Notes: generated from the sequence alone by a model not told the origin. A DNA stretch of 64,000 nucleotides from Candidatus Dormiibacterota bacterium (GCA_035544955.1 DASZZN010000014.1:196811-260810), one strand, 5' to 3'; shown: positions 4,210-20,103, counted from the first letter of the stretch. Translations and numbers: made by a program.

Positions 4210-5958
4210 CTTTGGATGATCGTCGCTCGGCGCTAGCAAGCCGTCTTCCTCCATCAGGCCACGGATATGAGCGGCGATTCTTCGCGCAAGGGCGGGAGGT
4301 ACTGCGTTAGCGACCTGAAGCGGCTGCGTTGAGCGCGGCCCGCAGAAGACATAGGTATCCGGGAAACCCTGGATGCGGGCGGCTTCACGGACGGAGATAG
4401 TGCGGTTGAGAACCGGGTGCACAGGAAACGCACGGTGTCCCGCAATCAGCGTCGGGGCGAGGTCAGTCCCCAGGCGACGGTACGAGATCGGACCCTTACC
4501 CGATCCCTTGATACGCGCGATTTTGGCGACGACGGCAGCGCTGTGCGCCATCGTGGAGGCATTAAGAAGGACAGTCCCATTGTCCTGGTGGGCGTATTCC
4601 GCAATCGTTCCCGATGGAAGCCAGGGCAGATCCTCGAGCGCCCTCATCAGCCGGCCCTCCACCGGTTGCACTACGGGCGCTGGAGGCGCTGGCGGAGGAG
4701 CGTCCTTAATATTGCGGCGACGACCGAGGAAAATAAACCGCTTCCTTACTTGAGCGACCCCGAAGTCTGCGGCATTCAGCAGATATTCCCCGGCTGCATA
4801 ATGACTTCTTCCAAGGGAAACCCTCACGCCGTGGAGGAAGCTGAAGCCTTGGACATTCTTCAGACCTGGCACGTTTTCGATGACGATATAGGCCGCATTC
4901 AGCTCCCGAGCGAGCCGAGATACATGCTTGAACAAGACGTTCTTGGGGTCGTTCGCTTGACGGGCGCCCGCGGCTGAATAGCCCTGGCATGGCGGCCCCG
5001 CAAGAAGGACAGCAGGTTCGCCAACGCCCGGTACGAGCCGCCTGACATCGAAAGCTTTAAGCCGCGTCACATCCGCCTCGACAACGGGCACGCCAGGGTG
5101 ATTGGCGCGGTACGTCTGGGCAGCATTGCGGTCCAGCTCAACCGCAAGAGCGATTTGGAAGCCTTCCTGGCGGCAACCAGTCCCAAAGCCACCTGCACCA
5201 GCGAAGAGCTCGACAGCGACCGGATGACGGTCATCCCGGCTTAGTACGCGCCCGGTCCGGCAGAACGAGACCAGCACACACCTATCGCACTTCGGCCTCT
5301 GGCTCGTACATATGGCTCGTCCGTGGTGGACCAGATTCATGTGGAGGCGTTTGCGTATGGCGGGCGTGATCGCGCTCTCGAGCGGGTCGTGGTCCGCCTT
5401 GCGGTTTCCGGTTGTCAATATGCCCAGCCGCTCGACGATTCTGTGCACGTGAGTGTCTACCGCGAACCGCTTTCGGTCGAGCGAATAGGATTGTATGCAG
5501 CGAGCGCTCTTGGGACCGATTCCTGGAAGCGCGTCTAGAAATCTTTCGGCAGCAGCGTCGGACATTGTTCGCAGGTGATCGAGCGTTAGATCTCTTGGTG
5601 GGCTTGCGTATGGCCCTATCTTGCGAGCTTCGTTGTCCGCGCGAACCGCCTCGAGGATCCCGACCAGCTCCCGGGTTCTCGCCCGGTGGAAACCGCCGGG
5701 ACGAAGAAGTTCCCTGAGGTCGGTCGGCCTAGCCGAAAGGACATCCATCCATCTCGGGTAGCGGGCGCGGAGCTTTCTGAACAGCTTCTGATAACAGTCT
5801 TCGCGTGTTTGCCGGCTAAGCAAAATGTAGACCGTCTCGGCAAGCGGGTCTGTGAGATTGCCCAGATCAGCTGACCTGTATGTCACCTCGAGAAGCTCGT
5901 CGATGCGTTCAAGCGTTTGGGCCTGGGTTAGCTCTACCATCGGGCTCTTCCGCCTCAT
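4075..5958 (-). CDS. Fusion protein: N-terminal HhH-GPD (endonuclease III/Mig-like, [4Fe-4S]) DNA glycosylase + C-terminal DNA (cytosine-5) methyltransferase
   Basis: HhH motif LPGIGPKSARCI, catalytic Asp in FAVDTHVHRIV, and a C-x6-C-x2-C-x5-C cluster loop (CTSQRPKCDRCVLVSFC). C5-MTase motifs follow: I (FAGAGGFG), IV (GPPCQGYS), VI (IENVPGL) and X (QVANAVPP). The ORF runs to 6030, but the ATG at 5958 overlaps the upstream gene's TGA (ATGA), so I take the start as 5958. Confidence 0.85.
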   Translation of the reverse strand: MRRKSPMVELTQAQTLERIDELLEVTYRSADLGNLTDPLAETVYILLSRQTREDCYQKLFRKLRARYPRWMDVLSARPTDLRELLRPGGFHRARTRELVGILEAVRADNEARKIGPYASPPRDLTLDHLRTMSDAAAERFLDALPGIGPKSARCIQSYSLDRKRFAVDTHVHRIVERLGILTTGNRKADHDPLESAITPAIRKRLHMNLVHHGRAICTSQRPKCDRCVLVSFCRTGRVLSRDDRHPVAVELFAGAGGFGTGCRQEGFQIALAVELDRNAAQTYRANHPGVPVVEADVTRLKAFDVRRLVPGVGEPAVLLAGPPCQGYSAAGARQANDPKNVLFKHVSRLARELNAAYIVIENVPGLKNVQGFSFLHGVRVSLGRSHYAAGEYLLNAADFGVAQVRKRFIFLGRRRNIKDAPPPAPPAPVVQPVEGRLMRALEDLPWLPSGTIAEYAHQDNGTVLLNASTMAHSAAVVAKIARIKGSGKGPISYRRLGTDLAPTLIAGHRAFPVHPVLNRTISVREAARIQGFPDTYVFCGPRSTQPLQVANAVPPALARRIAAHIRGLMEEDGLLAPSDDHPKLQRRPAVAPPAVDRGSNVLRPHEKSLKPVPPTSMFEDEVALVSQ

Positions 5959-6155
5959 CCCTGCGACCCCGGGTGCGGCGACCTTAGGCGCGCCCACGTG
6001 AGAACATCGGCCTTTCGATAGCGGTAGCACCCGCCAACCTTAGTAAAGGGAAGGCCGCTCGCCTTTCTGAGACGCCACAAGGTGGTGCGGGACGCCTTCA
6101 GGAACTTCCGGAGCTCAGCGTCGGTCAAGAGCTCGTCCGATTCTAGATCACGCAT
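5955..6155 (-). CDS. AlpA/Xis-like small HTH DNA-binding protein (prophage regulatory/excisionase family)
   Basis: 66-aa protein with LLTDAELRKFLKASRTTLWRLRKASGLPFTKVGGCYRYRKADVLTW, matching the AlpA-type HTH. Its stop overlaps the MTase start codon (ATGA). Confidence 0.7.
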   Translation of the reverse strand: MRDLESDELLTDAELRKFLKASRTTLWRLRKASGLPFTKVGGCYRYRKADVLTWARLRSPHPGSQG

Positions 6156-6225: not shown

Positions 6226-7371
6226 CTACATAAGGAATTCCGTCATGAGGCGGGCTGCTTCGCGCTGCATGTCTGGTGTGACGTGCGAGTAGACATCGAG
6301 GGTGATAGCAACGGTGGCATGGCCGAGCATCTCGGCGACGATCTTCGGGTGTATGCCGCGGCTGAGCATTAGCGTTGCGGCCGTGTGCCGAAGATCATGG
6401 AACCGGATCGTCGGCAACCCAGCCTTTCTAAGGAGCGGACGGAAGGCACGTCGCACGACCCACTCTGCCGACAGCGGTCGGCCGAGCTCATCACAGAAGA
6501 CGAGCGTCGTGTCCACCCAGGCCGGGCCGGCTTGCAGGTTTTCCGCAGCCTGAGCCGTTCGGTGTCGGCGAAGAGCCGCAACGGCTTGGTCGGTGAGCGC
6601 GATCTGGCGGCGCGAACGCGCGGTCTTGGGCTCGGTAATAGCGGGTCCGTTTGGCCCTGGCGCCAGCGTTGCCGTCACCCTCGCGGCCGCACGGTCGAGG
6701 TCGAGCTCTGGCCATCTGAGAGCGAGGAGCTCGCCTTGCCGCATGCCCGTAGTCGCGGCCAGGACCCATAGCGCTTCGAGGCGCTCGCCGACGGCAGCCT
6801 CGAAGAGGGCGGCAACGTTTTCGCCGGAAAGAGTCCGCATTTGCGGGCAGGCCATCTTTGGCGGGCGGACTAGACCGGCCGCGTTCCGCGGCACCAAACC
6901 CCAGCGGACCGCGTCCTCAAGTGCCCGATGCAGCACGGCCTGCGCGTGATGAACGGAGGTCGGGCTTGCGCCTCCAGTGAGCATCCGTTCCTGCATCGTC
7001 CGAATATGAAGCGGACCCAGGCGGACGAGCGGGATTCTGCCGATGGCGGGCACGATATGGACTCGGAGGTACTTCTCGTACCGGATCCACGTCGAGAACC
7101 GCAGGTGCGGACGCATGCCAGGCAGCCAGTTCCGCAGGAAACTGCCAGCCGTTTCACGCGTTGGTCGTTGGTGGAGGCCGTCTTCGCGGGCCTTGAGGCC
7201 GGCCATCAGGCGGCGGTGAACCTCAGGCCGCGACTTGCTCACGAAACGATGGCGGTGGCCATCGACCGTGTAGGCAATTTCCCAACGACCGTCCTTGCGC
7301 TCATAGAGGGTACCGTCGCCATTGGCGCCCTTCCTTTTCCGAGTGGTCTTTCGCGAACGTGTATCAATCAT
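6226..7371 (-). CDS. int: Tyrosine site-specific recombinase (phage-type integrase)
   Basis: C-terminal catalytic signature IRFHDLRHTAATLMLSRG...LGHATVAITLDVYSHV (R/HxxR/Y box), an N-terminal SAM-like DNA-binding region, 381 aa. Confidence 0.9.
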   Translation of the reverse strand: MIDTRSRKTTRKRKGANGDGTLYERKDGRWEIAYTVDGHRHRFVSKSRPEVHRRLMAGLKAREDGLHQRPTRETAGSFLRNWLPGMRPHLRFSTWIRYEKYLRVHIVPAIGRIPLVRLGPLHIRTMQERMLTGGASPTSVHHAQAVLHRALEDAVRWGLVPRNAAGLVRPPKMACPQMRTLSGENVAALFEAAVGERLEALWVLAATTGMRQGELLALRWPELDLDRAAARVTATLAPGPNGPAITEPKTARSRRQIALTDQAVAALRRHRTAQAAENLQAGPAWVDTTLVFCDELGRPLSAEWVVRRAFRPLLRKAGLPTIRFHDLRHTAATLMLSRGIHPKIVAEMLGHATVAITLDVYSHVTPDMQREAARLMTEFLM

Positions 7372-7434
7372 CGAAATCAGCTCCCATTGCTCGAGTCAAA
7401 CAGTGTCGACATGGTACCGTCGACGCGCGCATTG

Positions 7435-7749
7435 TCAAGGGCGTTTCTTAGGCGTGTCCCAGGAGTCGTGCGCGATGCGGCGAGATTTATGTCGGCTGAG
7501 TCTCGACAGGCTTTCATCTGCGCCTTCAAGGTGCTGCCAGATCCAGTCCTGCAACGCCTCTCGTGGGACACGAACCGATCGACCGATCCGAACCACGGGC
7601 AGCTCGCCGGTTCTTACCAGGGCGCACACCTTGGTCCGACCAAGCCCAAGCGTCGTCGCCACCTCGGTGATTCGTAATAGCAGCGGTTCCATCTTCTCGA
7701 CGTCGCTCGCTACCGACAGGTCCTCAGCCGAAGGCGTTTGGTCCCTCAT
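7435..7749 (-). CDS. xis: Excisionase-family/MerR-like HTH DNA-binding protein
   Basis: 104 aa with LLRITEVATTLGLGRTKVCALVRTGELPVVRIGRSVRVPREALQDWI (excisionase-type HTH). It sits immediately upstream of int on the same strand. Its start overlaps the stop of the upstream ORF by 4 nt. Confidence 0.7.
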   Translation of the reverse strand: MRDQTPSAEDLSVASDVEKMEPLLLRITEVATTLGLGRTKVCALVRTGELPVVRIGRSVRVPREALQDWIWQHLEGADESLSRLSRHKSRRIAHDSWDTPKKRP

Positions 7750-8102
7750 TGCTTCGACGCTTCAGCCCACAGGGGAAGGGAGACGAAGCCAATCCGGTCA
7801 AGGGATCGGATGAAGGTCTGGTCCGAGGCAACGTTGATGGTGGCGCCATCGCGGTCAGCGATCGAGAGCGCGTCCCCGCTGGCGCCGGCGAGGAGCTTGA
7901 CATCGTCCGCGAGGCGAAGGCGGGTGATCAGCCGGTCTTCCGCACTTCCTTGCTCGTGGCCCGGATCATCCAGGAGAGCCGCAACGAGGCCGCGGAAGCT
8001 GTCCGCCTCGCAACCCCGGAGGAAAACGCCGTCTCCGACCGGATGGAAGAGCATGCGAAGCGGCAGCTCTTGCTGGTCGGCCGGATGGATGGGCCGGTAC
8101 AT
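7746..8102 (-). CDS. Hypothetical 118-aa protein, distal gene of the ligase operon
   Basis: ORF begins 2 nt after the amidoligase stop and overlaps the xis start by 4 nt. No recognisable motif. Confidence 0.35.
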   Translation of the reverse strand: MYRPIHPADQQELPLRMLFHPVGDGVFLRGCEADSFRGLVAALLDDPGHEQGSAEDRLITRLRLADDVKLLAGASGDALSIADRDGATINVASDQTFIRSLDRIGFVSLPLWAEASKQ

Positions 8103-8103
8103 G

Positions 8104-9390
8104 TCAGGCGGCTGCCCCTCGGCGCGTCCGTTGCCAGGCTGACCGCTGGTAGACCCAATAGAGCTTTAACTTGTCCTGCGGCCGGACGAAGATCAGGTCG
8201 GCAAAGCGGCGCAGCAAGCGATCGCCGTCGTCGGGATCGCGTGGGCTGCGGTGACTCCCGAGCGTATGTCGCTCCGGCGGGATGGCCGCGTCGGGCAGCT
8301 CGGCTGCGCGCTTGGTCACCCAGCAGGCCAGCTTGATGTTGGCCTGCAGGCGAACGGGGTCGAGGCTCGAGTCAAAGTACCGATACTCGATCGTCCGATT
8401 GCGGTCCAGGATGTTGCCGAAGTTCAAGCCAACCGAATGGCTGCTACCGACTCGGTTGGCAAGATCGCTGAGGCCCTGGACCTCTTCGAACTGGCCGGAG
8501 CCCATGGGACCACACCAGCGGTAGCCATTGGTACTGCCGCGGTGGCTGCGTCCCCGCTGACCCGTCGCGGCAGCTAGACGGTACATGAGATCCTCCGCCC
8601 AGGCGCACACCTTCGCGACGCGTCGGAATTTGTTCACGTCGTGGTCCATGCCGGCGGAGTCGACCCCCACGTGGACATGCCCACCGGTTCGGCCGGTCGC
8701 TCTCGCTCCGTGCGCTTGCAGGATCTGGCAGACGCGTTCCAGCTGGGCCCACGCCTCGGGGGTGTCCTGGAGGACCGGGCTTACGACCTCGCCCGAAACG
8801 GTGGCGTCGTGCTCAAGCGTCCATTTGCCGGCTACGCGGCTGCTCGAGTGGTATGGCTCCTGGCGAGCGCTCGACGTGAGCCCCGCTTCGTGCAGTGCCC
8901 GAGCGACGGCATTGGGGTCGGCACCGTCGAACTCGATCTCGATACCGAAGGTCTGGTTGGGGTCGCCGATGACGTTCTCGCGCTCATAGCTGGCTGCTTG
9001 TCCGGTCATGGCCAGCCGTTTGAGCTCTCGATGCAGGGCCTCATTGGCCACCAGCGATCGCTCGCCTTCGGGCACCTCCTGTCCCTGAATCCGGAGGAAT
9101 TCGTCCCAGAGCCGCTGGGCCTGCTGCTGCTCTCGGTCCGTGCGCTCCCGCTGCTCCTGATATCTGGCAACCGCTCGGCTGTAGAGCTCGGCCCACTCGG
9201 GCGTGCCGACTGGCGGGTCATCGTCAACGATCGGGGTGGAGGCGACGACCGCCACCGCTGCTCCAAGAACCTCTGGGGCCTGGGCGATAGCGAGAGCGGG
9301 ACCGCCCCGGCCGGATGCTTGGACGGAGACGGCACCATCAGCGACGGCAATCGTGCCGTGCGACGCTCGACTTCCACCCTTGCTCGGCAT
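8104..9390 (-). CDS. Amidoligase (Amidoligase_2 / GCS2-like carboxylate-amine ligase family)
   Basis: Motifs TFGIEIEFDG, TLEHDATVSGEVVSPVL and TGGHVHVGVD match the glutamine-synthetase-like amidoligase/YbdK signature (GxExE ... EivSP ... HvHvg). The start codon directly abuts the stop of the ATP-grasp gene (9391). N-terminal peptide MPSKGGSRAS. Confidence 0.65.
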   Translation of the reverse strand: MPSKGGSRASHGTIAVADGAVSVQASGRGGPALAIAQAPEVLGAAVAVVASTPIVDDDPPVGTPEWAELYSRAVARYQEQRERTDREQQQAQRLWDEFLRIQGQEVPEGERSLVANEALHRELKRLAMTGQAASYERENVIGDPNQTFGIEIEFDGADPNAVARALHEAGLTSSARQEPYHSSSRVAGKWTLEHDATVSGEVVSPVLQDTPEAWAQLERVCQILQAHGARATGRTGGHVHVGVDSAGMDHDVNKFRRVAKVCAWAEDLMYRLAAATGQRGRSHRGSTNGYRWCGPMGSGQFEEVQGLSDLANRVGSSHSVGLNFGNILDRNRTIEYRYFDSSLDPVRLQANIKLACWVTKRAAELPDAAIPPERHTLGSHRSPRDPDDGDRLLRRFADLIFVRPQDKLKLYWVYQRSAWQRTRRGAAA

Positions 9391-10764
9391 CTACCCGGCA
9401 CGAGCCAGCCGTCCGCGCAGCGTCTGTTGGATATGCGCATAAACACTCTTGACCGTTTCCGCCGACATGCCCGGCGCAGCGTTTGCCTCTAGGCAATACA
9501 CCCGGTCGGTCTGCAGGTCCTCGATCACGTCCACGCCCGCGTAATCGAGGCCGACGCGGCGAGCGCCTTCGCGTGCCACGGCCGCGACAGAGCGCGGGAT
9601 GACCTGCGACCGTTCGAAGCTCCACTCCGGCCGCAGATCGTCGGGGGTAGCACCTTCCGGAGGTCGCTTCAGGTAGGCGGAGACAATCCGGCCGGAGAGC
9701 ACCGACACTCGATACTCGCGGCGATCGGGGATGAACTCCTGGAAGCAGTCGTAGCCAGCGCGCTCGGCCTGCGGCCCATCGGCCGGGAGCAGCGCCTTCC
9801 CGCTGCCCCGTGACCCGTGCCGACGCTTGCCGACGACGTGGTTCGAGCCAAGCAACGCGAGGTCTCCCGGATTAACGACGGTCCGCGGCGCGAGCTCGCG
9901 CAAACGCCCCAGCGACTCCACCTGGTCGGAGGCAACCCGGACGGCCTCCGGCTGGTTGAGCGCGACGGCCTCTTGAGGCAGCGGCTGAACAGATCCCCAG
10001 TTGAGGATCAACGCAGGGGAGCCTCCCGGAGGAACTTCCCTGGCGTCTCGAACAATCCGAATCTGGGCGCCCTGCGACGCAACGGCTTCGATGTTGTGTG
10101 CCATAGCCTCGGAAGGGATCGAGGATGGGACCAGGACACACACCGGTACGTCATCCCGGGACGGAGCAAAGGCAATCTCCCGGATTCGCACGCTTCCTGA
10201 TGGTTGATTGGGCGGTGCCTCTGCGCCGGCGACCAAGCCGTGCGGTCGTTGGCTCGCGATTGCGAGCAGGCGCGTCATCGCTTGCTCCTCGGCGGATGGT
10301 TCAACCGCGTATCCTGCCGACAATCCAGCCTCCCGCCGCGCGGCTTCGAAGGTGCGCAGTTCCTGGCGGCGTTGGCGGAAGTCGTCGAGCGCCTGCCGGA
10401 GTGATTCCTCGTCCCCGCTACCAGCGATTCGCTCCAGTTTCCGCAGGCGGGCCAGCACCCGGCGGAGGCGATACCGGTAAAGCTCGTCCGATTCTTCCGG
10501 GCTGAGGCTCCCCTGGCGAGCGGAGAGCTCGTTGAATCGGTCGACCTCCGGACCTCGCCGCAGTCCACGTGCCAGCTCGGCAGCGTCGAAGGCGGGCGCG
10601 AGGAGATCTATAGCCTCCGGCGTCCCGGAGCTCATCGGTTCCGCCGTGTCGGAGGGAATCGAGGAGACGTGCGGTTGAGCAATCTCGTCAAGACCGGGGA
10701 GCGACACGGAGAGCGGTCCCGCGCCGCCGCCGCCCGACGCCCTGCTCCCGCGCTTAGATGGCAT
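9391..10764 (-). CDS. ATP-grasp family ligase (RimK/glutathione-synthetase-like C-terminal domain) with ~200-aa N-terminal region of unknown function
   Basis: C-terminal motifs VVGKRRHGSRGSGKAL, GYDCFQEFIPDRREYRVSVL and VYCLEANAAPGMS (the E-x-N ATP-grasp signature). The ORF extends to 10809, but I prefer the internal start at 10764 (MPSKRGSRAS...), which mirrors the amidoligase N-terminus and overlaps the upstream gene by only 11 nt. Confidence 0.7.
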   Translation of the reverse strand: MPSKRGSRASGGGGAGPLSVSLPGLDEIAQPHVSSIPSDTAEPMSSGTPEAIDLLAPAFDAAELARGLRRGPEVDRFNELSARQGSLSPEESDELYRYRLRRVLARLRKLERIAGSGDEESLRQALDDFRQRRQELRTFEAARREAGLSAGYAVEPSAEEQAMTRLLAIASQRPHGLVAGAEAPPNQPSGSVRIREIAFAPSRDDVPVCVLVPSSIPSEAMAHNIEAVASQGAQIRIVRDAREVPPGGSPALILNWGSVQPLPQEAVALNQPEAVRVASDQVESLGRLRELAPRTVVNPGDLALLGSNHVVGKRRHGSRGSGKALLPADGPQAERAGYDCFQEFIPDRREYRVSVLSGRIVSAYLKRPPEGATPDDLRPEWSFERSQVIPRSVAAVAREGARRVGLDYAGVDVIEDLQTDRVYCLEANAAPGMSAETVKSVYAHIQQTLRGRLARAG

Positions 10765-11941
10765 CTGCAAGCCTGTCTTCGTCGAGGAGTGCGCCGTAGG
10801 TGCGGTCATTGTGGGCGCAATTCAGCAGGAAGCAATTGCGAGCCGAGCGAGCGACGGCCGTCCCGTGTTCCGTTCCCAGGAGACGTCGTCGCTGGGCGAG
10901 CGCGTAGGCCATGCCATTGCAGATCACCAGGCGCCGGCCGGGAGCCGCGCGTCGGTAGGCGGCCAACCGATCCGGCGCATGGACGCCCCCAAGGAGGAAG
11001 GTGACATCGTGCCGCACCGCCTGGTGAAAGAGCGCAATGTCTTCCAGCGTCTCGCGCAGCGCCCGCTCACTGGCGTGGACTTTGCGGCCGTCGCAGAAGA
11101 GCGAGACGGCCGTCAAGGACGGCTGGCTGTTGACCCAGTCAGCCCACAGCTGGCCGTCGGGCTCGAACCGGCTCCAGCCGATGTCAGCGATGGCGGGCAG
11201 CCCAGCCTCGATCAGCTCGTGGAAGAAGATGAACGAGCGGCGTTGCTGAATGAGCTGCTCAAAGCGCGAGTGGTCGTACCAGACGGAGAAGTTCGGCGCC
11301 AGGATCAGGTCGAAACCGAGTCCTCGGAGTTCCTGGATGACCGAGCGGCGATTCAACCAGAGCCCCTCAAGCACGCGATCTTCCACAAAGCACTCCAGTG
11401 CGACCTTCGTGGCGGGGCCCAGCCGGTACACCTCTCGAAGAGGCCGATGGTGCTTGGGCGTGATCCGACTTCCTGTAACCCCGAACACCCGGCCTGCATG
11501 AAGGGCCACCCACGGAATATCCACCGGGTCGGCGTATGCCTGGATCAGCACGGGGAGATGGACAGGCAGGTCCACGGGTTGGTGATGGACGATCGGGCGC
11601 CGCCACGTGAGGTCGAGGCCGCCCAGTTGATTGCTAACGGCTTGGCGGACATCCATACGAAGAAGGGGATTGGTCAGGCAGAGGGCGCACCGATCGTTGC
11701 CGGTGGGGCCATCGCGATGTCCGACCCGGCAGAAGTTGGGTGTCTTTCCGCATCGAGCAGCGGCCGGACAGAGATCACAATTCAGGCCGCAGGCTGAAGC
11801 CACCTCAGGACTCCTCCTCGAAGGCGCTGATGGCCTGCCGGAGGTCAACGAGGACATTGACGACGCCCTGGCATTCGCTCGGCGATAGGCGGCGTCGAAT
11901 ATTGGCGAGCGTCCGGGCGAGTTGGCGGCAGAGGTCGACAA
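10754..11941 (-). CDS. Cys-rich protein of unknown function (N-terminal 7-Cys cluster including CxxxCxxC; possible Fe-S/Zn-binding enzyme)
   Basis: 395-aa ORF co-directional and overlapping with the ATP-grasp gene. It contains ACGLNCDLCPAAARCGKTPNFCRVGHRDGPTGNDRCALC and a second Cys/His patch near the C-terminus (VICNGMAYA...NCFLLNCAHN). The first ~45 aa are low-complexity, so the true start may be the internal MSSLTSG. Confidence 0.5.
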   Translation of the reverse strand: MSTSAANSPGRSPIFDAAYRRANARASSMSSLTSGRPSAPSRRSPEVASACGLNCDLCPAAARCGKTPNFCRVGHRDGPTGNDRCALCLTNPLLRMDVRQAVSNQLGGLDLTWRRPIVHHQPVDLPVHLPVLIQAYADPVDIPWVALHAGRVFGVTGSRITPKHHRPLREVYRLGPATKVALECFVEDRVLEGLWLNRRSVIQELRGLGFDLILAPNFSVWYDHSRFEQLIQQRRSFIFFHELIEAGLPAIADIGWSRFEPDGQLWADWVNSQPSLTAVSLFCDGRKVHASERALRETLEDIALFHQAVRHDVTFLLGGVHAPDRLAAYRRAAPGRRLVICNGMAYALAQRRRLLGTEHGTAVARSARNCFLLNCAHNDRTYGALLDEDRLADAI

Positions 11942-12768
11942 CGATCCCGAGCTGAACCTCGAAGGCGAGCCGGTCTTCCGCCGGCCCAGCGGTGCCGCCC
12001 TCGGCGGTGAGGGCTGCCTCCACCGTTAGGTGCCGATCCTGTCGAAGGCGGTCCACCGCCGCGTGGACTTGGTTGTGGGTGAGGCGGCCAGGTCGGTAAA
12101 CCAGGGCCGCCTGTCGCTCCGGATCATCCAGGCGGGCGATCTGGATTGCGTGCTCAGCCGGCAGGTGGCGCACCCCATCCTGAAGGTGGGGGTCCAGGCG
12201 CAGGATCCTGACCTTGTCCTTGCGCGCCGTCTCCGAAATCCGTAGCGCCCTCTCGGTGTCGCGCCAGCGGGCAAGCGGTTTCGGGACCAGCCCGCCTTCG
12301 AACTTCATCAGGTGAACGTTCTGGGCGATCAGCAGTTGCTTGAGGCCGTCAAGGTGTTCGGTGAAGCCGCCCCGAGTCGTGATGTGCCTCTCGTCTAAGG
12401 GCTGGAAGGGGACAATCGCGTCCCGGAGGAGTTGCTCGGCGACCGTGATGTCGCGGAGTGTCTTGTCCAGCAGAATGCAGTGGGCCTCCTCCACGGGATC
12501 GAGGTCGGAGCGAAGCTGGTTCTCCTCGTACTGTTTCTCGAGGCGCTCGAGGTAGCGCAGCCGAGGATGAAGGCGGGCCAGGACCTGGCTGATGCCCGCC
12601 GCCCGCGCCGCCCGCCACCGCTGCTCGCCGCACACGATCTCGATATCGGCCCGGCGTTCCTGCCGCCGGCTCGACCTCCAGCAGCGGCTGATGGCGCCCC
12701 GCCTTCATCGAGGCCGCGAGCTTGTCGACCAGGTCCATCGACCGTGCCCCTCCTTCGGTTGGGTCCAC
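11805..12768 (-). pseudogene. ParB/Srx-like nuclease-domain protein, disrupted by a frameshift (or sequencing error) near 12640-12650
   Basis: The upstream frame (ORF 12349..12768) gives MDLVDKLAASMKAGRHQPLLEVEPAAGTPGRY, the ParB N-terminal box. The downstream frame (ORF 11805..12635) continues as (D)IEIVCGEQRWRAARAAGI, the GxRRxRAA ParB motif. The two frames join if a single C is removed in ...GRY|EIVCGEQ.... Confidence 0.6.
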
Positions 12769-12847
12769 GACCTCAGAGAGCTACCCCGATCCGGCCCCCA
12801 TTCGCGACCGGGATGCGGGAACTGCACCAGGCAGATTTGATCCCTCG

Positions 12848-13699
12848 TCATTCTCTGCTTGATGGCTGGGAGTCGCCACTCTCCCTCAAAAACTGCGAAA
12901 GTGTGGCACCGAGTTCCTGCTCGCCCCGCCGGCCTAAGCCGGTCGGCCGCACAAGCGGCAGATTCCACCCCATTACCCAGACGGCCTTGGCTCGTTGTCG
13001 AGAGATAGAAGCCCACCAGGTAAGGCGACCAAGCCTCGATTCCGCAACCTGCATCGCTCCGAGGATGCGACCTACCTCAACGTAAACGCCTCGGCCGTTG
13101 CAAAGAAGTGCGGTCGCTGGAAGCGCGGCCACCTGCCACCGAAAGAATTCGGTGTCTGTTGCCCAGAGGGCTGCCGCCTCGGCCGGCCAAGTGCGACCTA
13201 GCTCCGACCACGTTGGGAAGGTCGCCTCCTGGATCAGGTCTAGGTGAACCGCCATTCCAGTGGCGTACGAGATGCCCATCCCGTCAAGCACGTTATTCAT
13301 GTGACCGAACCACCGACCAAAGGTGGGTCGGCCGGGGTCGAAGTAATGCCTCATCGTTTCGATTGCTCGTTCGCACTGTAGATCGCTGAGAGTGTCGCGG
13401 CCAACTGCACCCAGCGAAGTTAGCGTTTCGAAACGTCGGACATTGGAGCCATCGAGCTCAATTAGTCGAGCGCTGTCAGATCGACCGGCGTGTCGTGCGT
13501 ATTCGCGGTACGAAGGGTTGATGGCCACAGTCGCTGTGATGGCCCGGTCTGGATCGCCGAAGAAGAGAACGGGAAGCGACCTGGGCACCGAGTGTGGCGA
13601 TGGAGCTGCTCGCAAGCGCTGGTTGAGGTTCCGCTTCTGCGAAACCGTAAAGGCCTCCGATGGGCGGGCGCGGCTCGTATCACACTCTGCCATAGACAT
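12848..13699 (-). CDS. Hypothetical protein (283 aa)
   Basis: Long minus-strand ORF in the same co-directional array. Protein-like composition, no motif recognised. Confidence 0.4.
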   Translation of the reverse strand: MSMAECDTSRARPSEAFTVSQKRNLNQRLRAAPSPHSVPRSLPVLFFGDPDRAITATVAINPSYREYARHAGRSDSARLIELDGSNVRRFETLTSLGAVGRDTLSDLQCERAIETMRHYFDPGRPTFGRWFGHMNNVLDGMGISYATGMAVHLDLIQEATFPTWSELGRTWPAEAAALWATDTEFFRWQVAALPATALLCNGRGVYVEVGRILGAMQVAESRLGRLTWWASISRQRAKAVWVMGWNLPLVRPTGLGRRGEQELGATLSQFLRESGDSQPSSRE

Positions 13700-13708
13700 C
13701 GGTCGGGT

Positions 13709-14422
13709 TCATGAATTCTTCTTGGGCGAGGACCCTACGCTGCCGAGTCGCGGGTTAGTGGGAAGGCCCTGGGCCTTGGCTTCCCGGTAGTAACCGCGGC
13801 TCTCTGCCTCCATCCATATAAGAACTTCAAGGATCCTTACCGGCGTGACGACGTATCCGCCCTTCACCAGATCATCTCTCAGGGCCTTTATCTCGGTCAG
13901 GTTTGCCCGGAGATCCTCTCGGAAAGCACGCCATGCGGGCATCGTTGCCTGGGCGGCTTTCGTCTTGTCCTGAAGTCTGCCTTGGGTTGACTTCAAGTGG
14001 AGCGCATCGAGATAGAAGAGCACCACCACTGAGTCGAGCATCGGGATATAGTTCCGCCTCTTGCGATGTAGCACTTTTGTTGCTACGGCAGACAGCACGC
14101 CGGGTACCGAGATGGCTGCGCTCAGAAGCGACTCGCCAACTTCTAAATCCGGGTCGAATATCAGGATGTCGGCGTCTACCGGGATTCGCGGGAGTAGCGG
14201 ATCGCAAGCAGCGGCCATCCCACGGTGAACCTTCTGGACCTTTTCTCCAGTAGCCACTCGAGAGTTCATAGAGACTGTCACAAGGATGTCGAGAGGTTCA
14301 ATGCGGTTCGGATCATTCGTTGGGATTGCATCGTAGTACGCGTACTCATTCGGAAAGAAGCGCAAAAGGCGATCCCTGCAGTTCGACAGACTGGGCCCGC
14401 TAGGCAGCTGCAGGTTCATCAA
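13709..14422 (-). CDS. Hypothetical protein (237 aa)
   Basis: Lower-GC ORF directly upstream of 12848..13699 on the same strand. No recognisable motif. Confidence 0.4.
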   Translation of the reverse strand: MMNLQLPSGPSLSNCRDRLLRFFPNEYAYYDAIPTNDPNRIEPLDILVTVSMNSRVATGEKVQKVHRGMAAACDPLLPRIPVDADILIFDPDLEVGESLLSAAISVPGVLSAVATKVLHRKRRNYIPMLDSVVVLFYLDALHLKSTQGRLQDKTKAAQATMPAWRAFREDLRANLTEIKALRDDLVKGGYVVTPVRILEVLIWMEAESRGYYREAKAQGLPTNPRLGSVGSSPKKNS

Positions 14423-14472
14423 ACGGAGAACATTCCGTTCCGAGTCCCTACCATTCCGTAGCGCGGGTCCGA

Positions 14473-14904
14473 TCAGGCATCATCGGTGCGTAGATATAGG
14501 AGTGACCCTGAGGTCCTGAACAGCCCGAGTATTGGGCTAGGGGCACCCGCCAGCTTCGTCAGGCATGGCAAATTCAGGCCTACGAATTGCTGCTCGGACG
14601 ACATACAGCTGTCAAAGACCGAGCGTATGCTTGCCTCCGTCCAGGATTTGAAATTTAGGGTAGGTAGGTGATGAAACTGGATTCGGAAGTCTGCCGGTGC
14701 TTTGCGGGCGGGTTGTTTCCGCCGATTAGAGTCGGTTTTCGCTCGATCGGGCAAGGCTACCGCAGCGAGGACGATTATCGCGAGTTCGATCATGAAGGTC
14801 ATCGAGGGTGGTGCATCACTAAGCATGAAGGTCATTGCAACCCTGAGCATATTCCTATACGCGAAATCGACTAAGCCTAGGAGGAACACCCAAGATGCAG
14901 ACAT
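14473..14904 (-). CDS. Hypothetical small protein (143 aa), possibly membrane-associated
   Basis: ORF in an AT-richer segment with a hydrophobic stretch (MIELAIIVLAAVALP). Weak support. Confidence 0.25.
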   Translation of the reverse strand: MSASWVFLLGLVDFAYRNMLRVAMTFMLSDAPPSMTFMIELAIIVLAAVALPDRAKTDSNRRKQPARKAPADFRIQFHHLPTLNFKSWTEASIRSVFDSCMSSEQQFVGLNLPCLTKLAGAPSPILGLFRTSGSLLYLRTDDA

Positions 14905-15305
14905 TTGAGGGTGCGCTAATCCGAGAGCAAGGCGTGGCGTTCGGGGTCGTCGTCTGCCGACGAGGCCTCCCGAACAGAGACAAGACGGTGCTTATGGAAA
15001 GCGTAAGTCGCATCTTTGGCCGCGTACCGGTCGTAGCCATGGAGCAGGATCACCGGGGCGTGCCGACATACTATGGGCGCACTGACTTGGTTCGTTTCTT
15101 GGCCTCGGTTCCGATGGAAGCCATTCCTTGGAAGAAATACACGATCACCTAGGGGCGTCCTTTTCATGATCGACGATCCGTTGGAAACCCGGGTGCTCAC
15201 CAAGAAGCTTCGACAGACGGCACTTGCTGCCGGCGTCCTTCGGAGCCGCTCGGGGAGCGACCAAGCGGCGCATTAACGAGATTCCAGCTACGATTCCCAC
15301 GTAAA

Positions 15306-16238
15306 GTGGCGGTCCCCGATTTTCAGTCCATCATGCTTCCCTTCCTCCAGTCGCTGGCAGATGGTCAACAACAGCGAACGCGGGAGCTAATGCCTCGGCT
15401 TGCGTCGCAGTTTCACCTCTCAGATACGGACCTTCGGCAGCTGCTGCCAAGCGGCACGCAGCGTGTCTTCGAGAACCGCGTCTACTGGGTGAGCAGCTAT
15501 CTAAGGCACGCAGGGCTGATCGAGAGCCCGCAACGCGGGGTTGTCCGGATCACGGAAAATGGGCGCAAGGTCCTAGCTAATCCCCCGGATCGCATCACCG
15601 TCGGATATCTGATGCGACTTCCCAGCTTCCAACCATTCGGAAGCCAAACGACCGCGGCAGGCGGCTTAGGTATAGGACACGTGCCCCCCGCCGTCAAGGC
15701 TTCAGATAGAACACCTGAGGAAGATCTCGAAGCGACCTGGCTCACGATTCGCGACGCGCTGGGTCAGGATCTCCTGGGAAGGATCAAGACTTGCTCTCCC
15801 AGTTTTTTCGAACGCCTCGTGGTTGACCTGCTGGTCACGATGGGGTACGGCGGATCTGTCGTCGATGCAGGCCAGAGCGTCGGCATGTCCGGCGACGGTG
15901 GAGTGGACGGAATCATTAAAGAGGACAAACTCGGTCTTGACGTTGTCTACATTCAGGCCAAGCGCTGGGAGGGGCAGGTCGGTCGGCCAGTGGTACAGGC
16001 CTTCGCGGGGAGCCTTGAGGGATTCCGAGCCCGGAAAGGCGTACCGATTACGACCTCGGGATTCTCAGCCGACGCCCGAACCTACGCGAACCAGATCGAG
16101 AAAAGAATCGTGCTCATCGATGGGACCAACCTCGTCCGGCTGATGATGGAGCACGGCGTGGGCGTTACCAGGGCGAAAACCTACGACGTCCAAAGGATTG
16201 ACCTTGATTACTTCGACGAAGAGGCATTATCCGGTTAG
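15306..16238 (+). CDS. mrr: Mrr-family type IV (modification-dependent) restriction endonuclease
   Basis: N-terminal Mrr_N winged helix (MAVPDFQSIMLPFLQS...LRHAGLIESPQRGVVRITENGRKVL). Mrr_cat motif GMSGDGGVDGIIKEDKLGLDVVYIQAKRW (GDGGxDG ... D ... QxK). GTG start. Confidence 0.9.
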   Translation: MAVPDFQSIMLPFLQSLADGQQQRTRELMPRLASQFHLSDTDLRQLLPSGTQRVFENRVYWVSSYLRHAGLIESPQRGVVRITENGRKVLANPPDRITVGYLMRLPSFQPFGSQTTAAGGLGIGHVPPAVKASDRTPEEDLEATWLTIRDALGQDLLGRIKTCSPSFFERLVVDLLVTMGYGGSVVDAGQSVGMSGDGGVDGIIKEDKLGLDVVYIQAKRWEGQVGRPVVQAFAGSLEGFRARKGVPITTSGFSADARTYANQIEKRIVLIDGTNLVRLMMEHGVGVTRAKTYDVQRIDLDYFDEEALSG

Positions 16239-18243: not shown

Positions 18244-20103
18244 TTGACATGTATCTGCGTCGGTTGCAGCAGAAGGCGCTCGGCCAAACCACGCCTCGGC
18301 CATAGGGTCATACTGACCGTGACTGCTCCTGAGTGGATCGGGCTGGATGAACTCTCCCGCATCCACCGCATGCGCGGGCCTCAGTTGATGTGGTTTCTAG
18401 GTGCTGGCGCGTCCGCGGCTGCAGGTGTACCGACAGCCGAGAACATGACCTGGGAGTTCAAGCAGGTGTTGTATTCGACCAAGCAAGGCGCTCCTATCAC
18501 GAGCCTCGATCTATCGGAGGACGCCGTCCGCGACCGCCTCACCGAGTACTTTGCCAGGAATCCGGACTTCCCAAAGCCCGGCGATCCCCTGGAGTACGGC
18601 GCGTTGTTCGAAGCTGCTTGGAAATCGCCACAAGATCGACGCCAATACATTGACCAGCAGATCGCTAGGGGCAAGCCCGCGTATGGCAACCTTGCACTCG
18701 CCGCGTTATGGCGAGTCGGCAATGCGCCGGCTGTGTGGACCACGAATTTCGACCGGGTCATGGAAGATGCCGCCACCGCGATGGTGCAGCCTCCCATGAG
18801 ACTGACAATCTCAACCACCGACTCGAGCCAGATCGCTATGCAGGCTCTCAATCAGTCGCGCTGGCCTTTGTATGTGAAGCTTCACGGCGATTACCAGTCC
18901 GACAGTTTGAAGAACGTGTCGACCGAACTTCGTGAGCAGGACACGGGACTCCGTCAGGCTCTGGAGCAAGCGACGCAGCGTATGGGCATGATCGTCGTTG
19001 GTTACAGCGGGCGTGACGACTCGGTCATATCAGCCCTACATGCGGCCTTAGAGACATCGTCTCCATATCCATTCGGACTCTTTTGGTGTTGTCGGTCAGA
19101 CTCGCCGCCGAGTAGCGCGGTTCGTGAGTTAATGCAAGCCTGCGCCACGAAGGGCGTCGAAGCTAGATTCGTCGCGGTGGAGACGATGGACGAGCTACTC
19201 GGCCGATTGCTCCTGCCGCTTGATCTTCCTCCAGACGTCTCTCAGCTGCTCGCCGCGGCCCTCCCGGCACAACCACGGCTGCCATTCATCACTCCGCAGC
19301 GCGGACGAGGTCGCCCAATCCTTCGTTTCAATGCCCTTGAAGTCATGAAATTTCCAACGACGGTTCGTAAGGTCGTCTGTGGCATTTCTGGTACCAAGGA
19401 GGTACGGGAGGCTTTGGCGACCGCAGGGGCCAACGCACTGGCCGTACGACGACGTGACGCGGTCATCGGCTTCGGAGAGGACCGGGGCTTGCGTACCGCG
19501 CTTGAGCCATACGGAATTACGGACTGGACTGTGGGTGCGATTGACATGTCTTCGCTCTTCAAGGAGAGCTCCACAGACCTAGGCCTTTTGTATGAAGCAC
19601 TCGTCGTGGCGTTGGCACGGTCTGAGTCCCTGCAAGCGCGCCGACTTCGCGGCGAACATTTTCTGGTAGTCAAAGACTCGGGATCCGGTGATGCCTTGGC
19701 TGAACTAACGAGGGCTGCGACCACGGTGGCTGGTCAGTGGACAACCCCCGGAGGTTCAGAAATAGCGGGTGAGGTCAGTGGAGTCGGTAAATGGAGCGAA
19801 GGCGTACACCTTCGTTTGGAGTACCGCTTCGACCGTCTCTGGTTAATATTCGAGCCAACCGTTTGGGTTGAGCGAACGGCAAATCTAATCGACGAGGCTA
19901 TCCGGAAAAATCGCCAGGAGTTCATTCGCCAGCGGCTGGAACACCGCTACAACCGCAACGCCTTCGAGTTCTTGACGGCGTGGACGATCCTACTAACCGA
20001 GGAGAAGAATCTTGTCTCGTTCGGCCTGGCTGAAGGCACCGGAATCGATGCCGGCTTCGCTCTCTCAGACCGCAGCGCCCTGTCATTCCATAGGTTCTCC
20101 TAG
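18244..20103 (+). CDS. SIR2-APAZ protein of a short-pAgo (SPARSA) defense system
   Basis: SIR2_2-type motifs FLGAGASAAAGVP, TTNFDRVMEDA and VVGYSGRDDSV in the N-terminal half. The ~300-aa C-terminal extension is consistent with APAZ. The stop overlaps the next gene's GTG start (TAGTG). Confidence 0.8.
   Translation: MTCICVGCSRRRSAKPRLGHRVILTVTAPEWIGLDELSRIHRMRGPQLMWFLGAGASAAAGVPTAENMTWEFKQVLYSTKQGAPITSLDLSEDAVRDRLTEYFARNPDFPKPGDPLEYGALFEAAWKSPQDRRQYIDQQIARGKPAYGNLALAALWRVGNAPAVWTTNFDRVMEDAATAMVQPPMRLTISTTDSSQIAMQALNQSRWPLYVKLHGDYQSDSLKNVSTELREQDTGLRQALEQATQRMGMIVVGYSGRDDSVISALHAALETSSPYPFGLFWCCRSDSPPSSAVRELMQACATKGVEARFVAVETMDELLGRLLLPLDLPPDVSQLLAAALPAQPRLPFITPQRGRGRPILRFNALEVMKFPTTVRKVVCGISGTKEVREALATAGANALAVRRRDAVIGFGEDRGLRTALEPYGITDWTVGAIDMSSLFKESSTDLGLLYEALVVALARSESLQARRLRGEHFLVVKDSGSGDALAELTRAATTVAGQWTTPGGSEIAGEVSGVGKWSEGVHLRLEYRFDRLWLIFEPTVWVERTANLIDEAIRKNRQEFIRQRLEHRYNRNAFEFLTAWTILLTEEKNLVSFGLAEGTGIDAGFALSDRSALSFHRFS

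What the first reader, a model, noticed from the sequence alone, without database searches (positions are those of the whole stretch)
7746..12768. Integrase-linked operon of amidoligase + ATP-grasp ligase + Cys-rich unknown + ParB-like protein: candidate undescribed modification system
Seven to eight genes on the minus strand form one overlapping or abutting array, with 0 to 11-nt gaps and stop/start overlaps. The order is ParB-like, Cys-rich protein, ATP-grasp, amidoligase, a 118-aa ORF, then xis and int. Two different ATP-dependent carboxylate-amine ligase folds sit side by side with a ParB/Srx-like domain, a Cys-rich possible Fe-S/Zn protein and a small terminal ORF. That combination is the layout of peptide-tagging and nucleotide or DNA-base aminoacylation systems, not of housekeeping biosynthesis. 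The operon is embedded in a mobile element next to a C5-MTase and a type IV restriction enzyme. I know of no named defense or modification system with this exact composition.
Basis: partly seen in the sequence, partly recalled or inferred. Interest (0 to 1): 0.8.

Follow-up and report, generated by a model that had tools for sequence, protein, structure and literature searches.

The report
ICE module: ParB, TGT-like enzyme, two ligases
The flagged genes are the integrase-proximal arm of a decayed integrative conjugative element, whose conserved cassette pairs a ParB-like DNA clamp and a tRNA-guanine-transglycosylase-fold enzyme (DUF4417) with two ATP-dependent amide ligases sharing an N-terminal tag, so it is probably an uncharacterised DNA- or protein-conjugating modification machine of mobile elements.

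Summary
The gene array is real and tightly coupled. parB-like, DUF4417, ATP-grasp, Amidoligase_2, orf118, xis and int lie on the minus strand at 6226-12738.

The five-gene cassette keeps the same order in 19 of 20 related loci, almost all from Candidatus Dormiibacterota. In intact relatives it sits between T4SS coupling protein/Replic_Relax genes and xis-int, so it is ICE backbone. It is not a free-standing defence system.

The window copy is a remnant. Homology to an intact ICE stops at 12741, no T4SS genes are present, and parB carries a 1-nt frameshift.

There are two new findings:
- Both ligases begin with an invariant MPSKGG(S/R)R leader on a variable linker. Streptomyces plasmids show lineage-specific equivalents on the proteins encoded after ParB-DUF4417. 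This recalls the Cap10-bound N-terminus of type IV CBASS.

The best reading is a ParB-guided, TGT-fold DNA modification module with leader-recruited ligases (about 0.35). Function is unproven.

The parts
11805..12738 (-). parB-like gene (ParB/Srx N-terminal NTPase-fold domain plus a helical C-terminal part). It is frameshifted in this window by a 1-nt insertion near 12641.
   Evidence: The GEQRWRAARAAG box is present. TIGR00180 and HTH_ParB match weakly on the fragment. Intact 310-351-aa orthologues carry PF02195, with TIGR00180 at 3e-11 to 9e-15. The DNA alignment with L001 shows one extra base. The window is 92.6% identical to L032, whose parB is intact and starts at the equivalent of 12738.
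10754..11803 (-). DUF4417-family protein (349 aa). It has an N-terminal Cys cluster (C5, C9, C12, C18, C25, C39, C42) followed by a TGT-like TIM barrel.
9391..10764 (-). ATP-grasp ligase (457 aa), RimK/MptN-like. It has an N-terminal MPSKRGSR leader, a variable linker and a conserved helical region.
   Evidence: phrog_2599 1e-21; NF040720 MptN 4.6e-10; RimK PF08443 0.002 (below cutoff); PDB RimK 0.009. The leader is conserved in all 18 homologues examined.
8104..9390 (-). Amidoligase_2 (glutamine-synthetase-like carboxylate-amine ligase, 428 aa) with an N-terminal MPSKGGSR leader.
   Evidence: PF12224 1.3e-18 (above cutoff) and phrog_2443 5e-16. The leader is invariant in 12 homologues. The two leaders in this window use different codons. 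The catalytic domain is homologous to the pCW3, Streptomyces and Nonomuraea amidoligases, E 1e-49 to 1e-61.
7746..8102 (-). orf118, a conserved small acidic protein with no known family or fold and a variable C-terminal tail.
7435..7749 (-). Excisionase-like HTH_17 protein (104 aa).
   Evidence: PF12728 3.6e-12. The same gene is present in L031 and L032.
6226..7371 (-). Tyrosine integrase (381 aa). It marks the end of the stretch homologous to the intact ICE.
   Evidence: PF00589 2.8e-25 and PF14659. Nucleotide homology to L031/L032 ends at 6233.

Best explanation
The region is the integrase-proximal arm of an integrative conjugative element (ICE) of a Dormiibacterota-type family.

**Shown.** Its conserved cassette is parB, DUF4417, ATP-grasp, amidoligase and orf118.

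**Inferred working model.**
1. The ParB-like NTPase loads on element DNA, as DpdB/ParB clamps do. It positions the translationally coupled DUF4417 enzyme on that DNA.
2. DUF4417 has a tRNA-guanine-transglycosylase-type TIM barrel, with invariant D142 and D216 at the C-terminal ends of the barrel strands (the catalytic face), and a 4-Cys metal site. These equip it for chemistry at a nucleobase or glycosidic bond.
3. The two ATP-dependent carboxylate-amine ligases are recruited to this complex through their common N-terminal MPSKGG(S/R)R leader. They build or extend an amino-acid/peptide-type amide decoration on the exchanged base or its precursor.
4. orf118 acts as an accessory or regulatory subunit.

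**Inferred outcome.** The element's DNA becomes covalently hypermodified, which helps it establish in new hosts by evading restriction. This fits the orphan DNA methyltransferases interleaved with the cassette in relatives.

**State of this copy.** In this window the machine is probably not functional as a whole, because parB is frameshifted and the transfer genes are gone.
For: - **Conservation and context.** The cassette is colinear in 19/20 loci. In intact relatives it lies between VirB4-like, CHAP/SLT, TrwB-like coupling protein and Replic_Relax genes on one side and HTH_17-integrase on the other.
- **TGT-like fold, found by two methods** on a confident model.
- **Link between ParB and DUF4417.** parB is translationally coupled to DUF4417 (1-nt gap). 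ParB-DUF4417 fusions are frequent in phages (bioRxiv 10.1101/2025.10.10.680097).
- **Precedent.** The TGT-like DpdA needs the ParB-like ATPase DpdB to exchange guanine for preQ0 in DNA (PMC10164549).
- **DNA methyltransferases interleaved or adjacent.** N6_N4 MTases occur in L026, L027 and L032, and dcm sits next to DUF4417 in pCW3.
- **Active-site conservation.** The invariant polar residues D142, S173, D216, R180 and R189 sit just after barrel strands. This argues for an active site rather than a scaffold.
- **Ligase families.** Both are carboxylate-amine ligase families.
- **Leader.** It is selected at the protein level and is restricted to the two ligases.
Against: - No modified base, substrate or activity was observed; everything mechanistic is inferred.
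- Profile-profile comparison of the DUF4417 family with E. coli Tgt is not significant (probability 0.2%). Its best local alignment puts the TGT nucleophile Asp on a variable N/D/S/T/H column, which is N296 in this protein.
- The TGT Zn motif is absent.
- PADLOC's models, which should include the Dpd system (not checked here), match neither protein.
- The ParB domain scores best with partition-type ParB models.
- No 7-deazaguanine synthesis genes appear in any annotated context.
- Amidoligases do not always accompany DUF4417. One Streptomyces cassette has two large unknown proteins instead, and Aminobacter has none.
- The shared leader is explained only loosely by 'recruitment'.
Confidence: 0.35

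Rival explanations
1. Nucleobase-protein (or other N-terminal) conjugation, as in type IV CBASS. The conserved N-terminal leaders of the 'client' proteins are the substrates. An ATP-dependent ligase attaches a carboxylated small molecule or nucleobase to the leader (the free N-terminus after Met removal, or the conserved Lys/Arg). The TGT-like DUF4417 protein binds that modified N-terminus in its base pocket. With ParB on DNA, it may then transfer or tether the client to nucleic acid.
For: - Cap10 is a TGT-fold protein that binds the NDG-modified N-terminus of CdnD. That N-terminus carries a conserved M(G/S)G(G/S)GG motif on an N-terminal extension, and the QueC-like ATP-dependent enzyme Cap9 is implicated in forming the conjugate (bioRxiv 10.1101/2025.04.06.647259).
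- Here both ligases carry an invariant MPSKGG(S/R)R leader on a variable linker.
- In Streptomyces sp. YIM 121038, all three amidoligases start with MGSG(S/T)RIDHQHH.
- In three other Streptomyces plasmids, two otherwise unrelated large proteins encoded after ParB-DUF4417 share only MGT(G/N)SKSSHxSYA.
- The second residue is always G, P or S, which is compatible with Met excision.
- The classical TGT nucleophile is not conserved, as expected if DUF4417 is a binder or transferase of a different kind.
Against: - There is no QueC-like protein and no CD-NTase.
- The leaders differ in sequence from the CBASS motif.
- Streptomyces clients without a recognisable ligase domain mean the ligase chemistry may be unrelated to the leader.
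- No complex prediction or mass-spectrometry data are available.
- ParB coupling and the phage ParB-DUF4417 fusions point first to DNA.
Confidence: 0.2
2. There are two separate functions that merely sit side by side in the ICE backbone. ParB and DUF4417 belong to DNA processing, partition or nicking, for example as a relaxosome accessory next to Replic_Relax (PHROGs labels the DUF4417 family 'nuclease'). The ATP-grasp, amidoligase and orf118 form a peptide-ligase system of the kind predicted for mobile elements. That system would modify a protein, a small metabolite or the cell wall to aid mating or exclusion. The leader would be a translocation or targeting signal for the T4SS.
For: - The position immediately after the coupling protein and Replic_Relax recurs in Dormiibacterota and Streptomyces.
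- The ParB domain is most similar to partition ParB, Noc and RepB.
- phrog_940 is annotated 'nuclease'.
- From my recollection of the PF12224 Pfam entry, which cites Iyer et al. 2009 (Mol Biosyst), these amidoligases lie in neighbourhoods with peptidases or Aig2-like cyclotransferases. A GGCT-family gene lies near the Streptomyces cassette.
- Peptidoglycan hydrolases (CHAP, SLT, NlpC/P60) are in the same elements.
- The DUF4417-amidoligase association is not universal.
Against: - Tight translational coupling runs across the whole cassette, including an 11-nt overlap between DUF4417 and the ATP-grasp.
- The DUF4417-amidoligase adjacency recurs in three phyla even without parB (pCW3).
- Known TIM-barrel nucleases were not the best structural matches.
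- No signal-peptide-like features are visible by eye in the leaders (no predictor was run).
Confidence: 0.25
3. It is a stand-alone anti-phage defence or restriction-modification-like system that happens to be carried by a mobile element.
For: In the window the cassette lies in a defence-rich neighbourhood: Mrr, a SIR2 plus short-pAgo-like pair, DUF6308 and an MTase. Relatives have CBASS or Bub-like loci beyond the integrase.
Against: - No PADLOC model matches.
- In intact relatives the cassette is inside the transfer backbone rather than in the variable cargo beyond the integrase.
- No nuclease or effector partner is conserved with it.
- The defence genes in the window lie outside the stretch homologous to the ICE.
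Confidence: 0.05

Closest known systems
DpdA/DpdB of the Dpd 7-deazaguanine DNA modification system (PMC10164549)
   Different: There is no detectable sequence similarity. The catalytic nucleophile Asp and the C-terminal Zn site are not recognisably conserved, and an N-terminal Cys cluster is present instead. DpdC and the DpdD-K restriction genes are absent. Two amide ligases and orf118 are present instead. The setting is conjugative-element backbone.
Type IV CBASS Cap9/Cap10/CD-NTase deazaguanylation (bioRxiv 10.1101/2025.04.06.647259)
   Different: The ligases here are ATP-grasp and GS-like, not QueC-like. The leader sits on the ligases themselves and has a different sequence (MPSKGG...). 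There is no CD-NTase or effector. A ParB partner is present, and the context is an ICE rather than a defence operon.
Amidoligase_2 (PF12224) systems of phages and conjugative elements. Predicted by Iyer, Abhiman, Burroughs and Aravind 2009, Mol Biosyst. That paper could not be read here; this is recalled from the Pfam description and from a citing paper.
   Same: The same amidoligase family is involved (1.3e-18). It is located on a mobile element, and a GGCT/Aig2-like gene lies nearby in a Streptomyces relative.
   Different: As far as I recall, the described neighbourhoods pair the amidoligase with a GATase-like peptidase or Aig2. They do not include ParB, DUF4417, an ATP-grasp ligase, orf118 or a shared N-terminal leader.
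Phage ParB-CTPase-fold / DUF4417 fusion proteins (bioRxiv 10.1101/2025.10.10.680097)
   Same: The same two domains are associated. In phages they are fused, and here they are adjacent, translationally coupled genes.
   Different: That survey treats DUF4417 as a domain of unknown function. Phage versions match only the core of the domain (residues about 117-245). Phage A25's stand-alone copy is only 227 aa. No ligases accompany them in the one phage context inspected.
PRTRC (ParB-related, ThiF-related cassette) of plasmids and ICEs (a TIGRFAMs/NCBIfam family)
   Same: A ParB-family protein on mobile elements is linked to an ATP-dependent conjugation-type enzyme set. TIGR03734 gives weak hits to the ParB here.
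   Different: PRTRC uses E1-like ThiF chemistry. It has no TGT-like or amidoligase components. Scores are far below the model cutoff.

Membership tests
Dpd (DpdA/DpdB) DNA 7-deazaguanine system | TGT-fold DNA transglycosylase | tested here: met
Dpd (DpdA/DpdB) DNA 7-deazaguanine system | Invariant catalytic Asp pair (general acid/base plus nucleophile) and a structural Zn site shared by TGT and DpdA | tested here: inconclusive
   Two invariant Asp residues exist (D142, D216). However, hhalign against Tgt is not significant, and its best local alignment puts the nucleophile on N296, a variable column. No CxCxxC...H motif follows the barrel. Model coordinates could not be superposed with these tools.
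Dpd (DpdA/DpdB) DNA 7-deazaguanine system | Adjacent ParB-like NTPase partner | tested here: met
   A ParB_N-domain gene lies 1 nt upstream. No PADLOC model matched it, so it is analogous to DpdB, not orthologous.
Dpd (DpdA/DpdB) DNA 7-deazaguanine system | DpdC and the DpdD-K restriction genes; preQ0 supply | tested here: not met
   PADLOC gives no hits. None of these genes, and no QueC/D/E genes, appear in the annotated contexts.
Type IV CBASS | QueC-like Cap9, and a CD-NTase with an M(G/S)G(G/S)GG N-terminus | tested here: not met
   No such proteins are present in the cassette. Only an analogous conserved leader is present on the ligases.
DUF4417 (PF14386) | Match to the Pfam model at the gathering score | tested here: inconclusive
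   The window protein scores 26.2 bits against a cutoff of 28.9. All 38 close relatives hit the model, best 3.9e-10. RefSeq annotates the plasmid homologues as DUF4417. It is an outlying subfamily carrying an extra N-terminal Cys cluster.
Amidoligase_2 (PF12224) | Match to the Pfam model above the gathering score | tested here: met
   68.2 bits against a cutoff of 22, E 1.3e-18.
RimK-type ATP-grasp ligases | Match to RimK/MptN models at their curated cutoffs | tested here: not met
   RimK scores 18.2 bits against a cutoff of 21. MptN scores 39 against 350. Only the C-terminal half of the fold aligns. The protein is an ATP-grasp superfamily member (phrog_2599, 1e-21), not a RimK orthologue.
Integrative conjugative element | Integrase/excisionase plus relaxase, coupling protein and T4SS genes in one element | tested here: not met
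   In the window, int and xis are present, but no T4SS or relaxase genes occur anywhere in the 64 kb. Homology to the intact ICE L032 stops at 12741. Relatives meet the definition. The window copy is therefore a remnant.
Ubiquitin/Pup-like protein tag (for orf118) | Conserved C-terminal residue used for ligation; beta-grasp or Pup-like features | tested here: not met

The most novel reading that the evidence does not exclude
DUF4417 proteins are a new functional branch of the transglycosylase fold. Guided by a ParB clamp, they would covalently couple leader-tagged 'client' proteins (here two amide ligases) or their products to DNA through the client's conserved N-terminus. That would make this a protein/peptide-nucleic acid conjugation system used by conjugative elements in at least three bacterial phyla. 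It would be mechanistically related to CBASS deazaguanylation, but with a different ligase chemistry and a DNA target.
Probability: 0.12. Interest if true: 0.9.

Novelty: new variant of a known kind. Interest (0 to 1): 0.72.

Why it matters
If the cassette modifies DNA, it would add a second, sequence-unrelated ParB plus TGT-fold DNA base-modification machine beside Dpd. This one would be coupled to amide-bond-forming enzymes. That combination predicts a new class of amino-acid- or peptide-decorated DNA bases carried by conjugative elements.

If instead the leaders are the substrates, nucleobase- or N-terminus-directed protein conjugation would extend beyond CBASS into plasmid biology.

Either way, the analysis does several useful things:
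- It gives a testable function to DUF4417, which has more than 1000 cluster representatives.
- It gives a testable function to the unexplained 'amidoligase' genes conserved in medically relevant C. perfringens pCW3-family toxin and resistance plasmids and in Streptomyces linear plasmids. These hosts are genetically tractable.
- It defines an ICE family in the poorly known phylum Dormiibacterota.

Tried and rejected
**Searches that gave nothing**
- Sequence searches of the PDB with the DUF4417 profile, the amidoligase and the ATP-grasp gave nothing useful beyond weak RimK hits.
- PADLOC gave no hits for any protein, including intact ParB orthologues and distant DUF4417 homologues.
- hhalign of the diverse DUF4417 alignment against E. 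coli Tgt was not significant, so catalytic residues could not be mapped by sequence.
- tblastn of the window DUF4417 protein against phage genomes found nothing. The pCW3 homologue found only core-domain matches in Streptococcus phages, and phage A25 was not informative about substrates.
- Pfam found no domains in the large Streptomyces and Euzebya proteins encoded after DUF4417. Custom HMMs of the amidoligase and ATP-grasp did not match them either.
- Att-site direct repeats and tRNA genes were sought, and none was convincing. Rfam gave no hits in 1-30000.

**Tools or papers not available**
- The afdb50 fold library was unavailable.
- Iyer et al. 2009 and 2013 could not be retrieved.
- Searches for functional data on the pCW3 DUF4417/amidoligase genes returned no paper addressing them, judging from titles and abstracts only.

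**Ideas rejected**
- Housekeeping cofactor or cell-wall biosynthesis is rejected, because all contexts found are mobile.
- orf118 as a Ub/Pup-like tag is rejected, because its C-terminus is not conserved.
- The leader as a nucleotide-level element is rejected, because the two copies use different codons.

Full report
**1. Observation**

The minus strand between 6226 and 12738 carries a tightly packed array of seven genes.

| Gene | Coordinates | Junction with the next gene downstream |
|---|---|---|
| parB-like | 11805-12738 | 1-nt gap |
| DUF4417 (the 'Cys-rich' protein) | 10754-11803, GTG start | 11-nt overlap (ATGCCATCTAA) |
| ATP-grasp | 9391-10764 | abuts |
| Amidoligase_2 | 8104-9390 | 1-nt gap |
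| orf118 | 7746-8102 | 4-nt overlap |
| HTH_17 excisionase-like | 7435-7749 | 63-nt gap |
| Tyrosine integrase | 6226-7371 | end of array |

- Family calls: Amidoligase_2 PF12224 1.3e-18; HTH_17 3.6e-12; Phage_integrase 2.8e-25; DUF4417 8e-6, just under the cutoff.
- The ATP-grasp is weak in Pfam (RimK 0.002). It is clear in PHROGs (phrog_2599, 1e-21) and against the NCBIfam MptN model (4.6e-10).
- No PADLOC model matches any of the proteins.
A C5 DNA methyltransferase, fused to an HhH-GPD glycosylase, lies at 4075-6030, and Mrr lies at 15306-16238.

**2. The genes are conserved together, inside conjugative elements**

- The DUF4417 protein has hundreds of close relatives at 60-95% identity and 337-350 aa.
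- A genome scan placed 22 loci almost entirely in Candidatus Dormiibacterota MAGs.
- tblastn of the window proteins against all fetched loci shows the same order and orientation. Wherever enough DNA is available, the ATP-grasp follows DUF4417 in 19/20 loci, the amidoligase in 13/14 and orf118 in 13/14, and parB precedes in 16/17. The one exception downstream of DUF4417 (L008) is a locus in which DUF4417 is split by an insertion.
- In long contigs the cassette lies within an ICE backbone: VirB4-like ATPase (DUF87 / P-loop_TraG), CHAP or SLT hydrolase, TrwB-like coupling protein, Replic_Relax, sometimes AAA_16, then parB-DUF4417-ATP-grasp-amidoligase-orf118. N6_N4 DNA methyltransferases are often interleaved. 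The backbone ends with HTH_17 and a tyrosine or serine recombinase.

**3. The window copy is a remnant**

- The window is 92.6% identical at the nucleotide level to locus L032 from 12741 to 6233 only. That stretch runs from the parB start to the end of int.
- L032 continues upstream into Replic_Relax, the coupling protein and VirB4. The window continues instead into orf283, DUF6308, Mrr, a SIR2 plus Piwi-like pair and an SF1 helicase. No T4SS gene occurs anywhere in the 64 kb.
- parB in the window has one extra base near 12641 (TATCGAGATC against TATC-AGATC). This splits the ParB N-domain between two frames. Orthologues are intact at 310-351 aa.
- The insertion does not lie in a homopolymer. 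Whether it is a real mutation or an assembly error cannot be decided here.

**4. The Cys-rich protein is a TGT-fold enzyme**

- An AF2 model built on 38 sequences is confident (pLDDT 83, pTM 0.86). It shows an eight-stranded alpha/beta barrel after a poorly modelled N-terminal Cys region.
- Foldseek independently returns only TGT-family structures among its top 50 hits (E 1.8e-5 to 2.5e-4, probability 1.00).
- An exhaustive HMM search finds 1033 cluster representatives of the family.
- In a 20-28% identity alignment of full-length members, the invariant residues are C18, D142, S173, D216 and G273. C9, C12, C25, R180 and R189 are nearly invariant. On the model's secondary structure these polar residues lie just after barrel strands, which is the catalytic face (inference).
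- Sequence-level kinship to TGT is not demonstrable. hhalign gives a probability of 0.2%. Its best local alignment places the TGT nucleophile Asp on N296, a variable column. The TGT Zn motif is missing.
- The fold is therefore TGT-like, but the catalytic apparatus is not the classical one.

**5. A shared N-terminal leader on both ligases**

- Every amidoligase orthologue starts MPSKGG(S)R, and every ATP-grasp orthologue starts MPSKGG(R)R (MPSKRGSR in the window).
- The leader is followed by a length-variable, low-complexity linker, then a conserved helical segment, then the catalytic domain.
- The two leaders in the window use different codons, so selection acts on the peptide.
- No other ORF in the window or in the related loci carries the motif.

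**6. Cross-phylum relatives**

Full-length DUF4417 homologues (23-27% identity, including the Cys cluster) occur on 107 plasmids.

| Replicon | Gene order | Leader or other note |
|---|---|---|
| C. perfringens pCW3 | dcm, small ORF, DUF4417, amidoligase; downstream of the tcp transfer genes | Amidoligase starts MPKRRSN |
| Streptomyces sp. YIM 121038 plasmid | T4CP-like ATPase, replication-relaxation protein, ParB, DUF4417, three amidoligases, an orf118-like 180-aa protein | All three amidoligases start MGSG(S/T)RIDHQHH; a GGCT gene lies nearby |
| Three other Streptomyces plasmids | The same T4CP, Replic_Relax, ParB and DUF4417 genes, followed by two large proteins | The two proteins have no detectable domains and share only their first ~30 residues, MGT(G/N)SKSSHxSYA |
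| Nonomuraea plasmid | ParB, DUF4417, orf118-like, amidoligase | Lies next to dnd genes |
| Aminobacter plasmid | Trb T4SS, then DUF4417 | No amidoligase |

The constant element is DUF4417, usually with ParB, in conjugative backbones. It is followed by 'client' proteins that share a lineage-specific N-terminal leader. In the window's family the clients are two amide ligases.

**7. Mechanism**

Shown:
- the composition, coupling, conservation and ICE context of the cassette;
- the TGT-like fold;
- the leader.

Established elsewhere:
- DpdA (TGT-like) exchanges guanine for preQ0 in DNA only with ATP hydrolysis by the ParB-like DpdB (PMC10164549).
- The ParB CTPase fold is often fused to DUF4417 and to DNA methyltransferases in phages.
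- In type IV CBASS, the TGT-like Cap10 binds the 7-amido-7-deazaguanine-modified N-terminus of a CD-NTase. That protein carries a conserved N-terminal motif, and the QueC-like enzyme Cap9 is implicated in forming the conjugate.

Inferred, best reading (about 0.35):
1. ParB loads on element DNA and positions DUF4417 for base- or glycosidic-bond-directed chemistry.
2. The two carboxylate-amine ligases are recruited through their leaders and build an amide-linked decoration.
3. The result is hypermodified ICE DNA that resists restriction in new hosts. This agrees with the methyltransferases interleaved with the cassette.

Rivals:
- Conjugation onto the leaders themselves, as in CBASS (0.2).
- Functionally separate DNA-processing and peptide-ligase modules, with the leader acting as a targeting signal (0.25).
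- An autonomous defence system (0.05).

The data do not discriminate firmly between the first three. The non-conserved nucleophile and the recurrence of leaders on non-ligase clients count against a simple Dpd-like picture.

**8. Comparison with known systems, and novelty**

- The cassette works most like DpdA/DpdB or Cap9/Cap10, but it is a member of neither. Defining components (DpdC-K, QueC-like ligase, CD-NTase) are absent, and sequence models do not match.
- Amidoligase_2 genes on mobile elements were predicted as peptide-ligase systems in 2009. I recall this from the Pfam entry; the paper was not retrievable.
- In the one paper found that discusses it functionally, DUF4417 is treated as a domain of unknown function (only four papers mention it).
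- I found no description of the TGT-like nature of DUF4417, of the five-gene cassette, or of the shared leaders.
- I therefore rate it a new variant of a known kind (a ParB plus TGT-fold nucleic-acid modification system). There is a modest chance that it represents something categorically new, namely leader-directed protein/peptide-DNA conjugation.
- The copy in this window is itself degenerate. The interest lies in the family it reveals.

Noticed in passing
window 4075-6030 (-): A single 651-aa ORF fuses an EndoIII-like HhH-GPD DNA glycosylase (with the Fe-S cluster loop motif) to a C5 cytosine DNA methyltransferase. The start of the ORF as listed (GTG at 6030) overlaps a 66-aa HTH gene (5955-6155), but the true start was not determined. 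The arrangement suggests a methylase with built-in repair of its own deamination damage.
   Followed up: partly
window 18244-21527 (+): A SIR2_2-domain protein (619 aa) is followed, with overlapping stop and start, by a 474-aa protein with a weak Piwi match (E 0.001). This looks like a short-pAgo/SIR2 defence pair. Mrr (15306-16238) and DUF6308 (13709-14422) make this a defence island abutting the ICE remnant.
   Followed up: partly
window 28-4209 (+): A 1393-aa protein has a C-terminal FtsK/SpoIIIE ATPase domain and weak STAND-NTPase matches. It lies just beyond the methyltransferase. Whether it belongs to a mobile element was not examined.
   Followed up: no
L002/L003 7959-15945 and L008 4392-16002: In three loci (L002 and L003 hold the same sequence from two sources, so this is two independent instances) the ICE's DUF4417 gene is split at about codon 182 by an insertion of about 7 kb or more. 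The insertion carries a complete second DUF4417 copy. In L002/L003, where gene calls were available, that copy is followed by two tandem tyrosine recombinase genes. The inserted element therefore targets this gene and brings a replacement.
   Followed up: partly
L034, L038, L039 (Streptomyces linear plasmids), about 9900-15700 in each locus: A conserved cassette runs T4CP, Replic_Relax, ParB, DUF4417, then proteins of about 135, 880, 750 and 154 aa. The two large proteins have no detectable domains and share only an N-terminal peptide of about 30 residues (MGT(G/N)SKSSHxSYA).
   Followed up: partly
L026 17910-19814; L028 17671-20265: Immediately beyond the ICE recombinase, relatives carry a Bub-like ubiquitin-type locus (BubE, ThiF/DUF6791, Multi_ubiq) or a CBASS locus (patatin, SMODS, E2-CBASS). 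The integrase-distal flank therefore appears to be a hotspot for defence cargo.
   Followed up: no
window 21563-21668: A cluster of imperfect GGCGAAC-type tandem repeats (period about 10 nt) lies directly downstream of the pAgo-like gene. Its function is unknown.
   Followed up: no
window 12848-13699 (-): A 283-aa ORF with no match in any family library lies directly upstream of the truncated parB. A 39%-identical match occurs on the opposite strand about 6 kb beyond orf118 in locus L004 (16428-16997).
   Followed up: no
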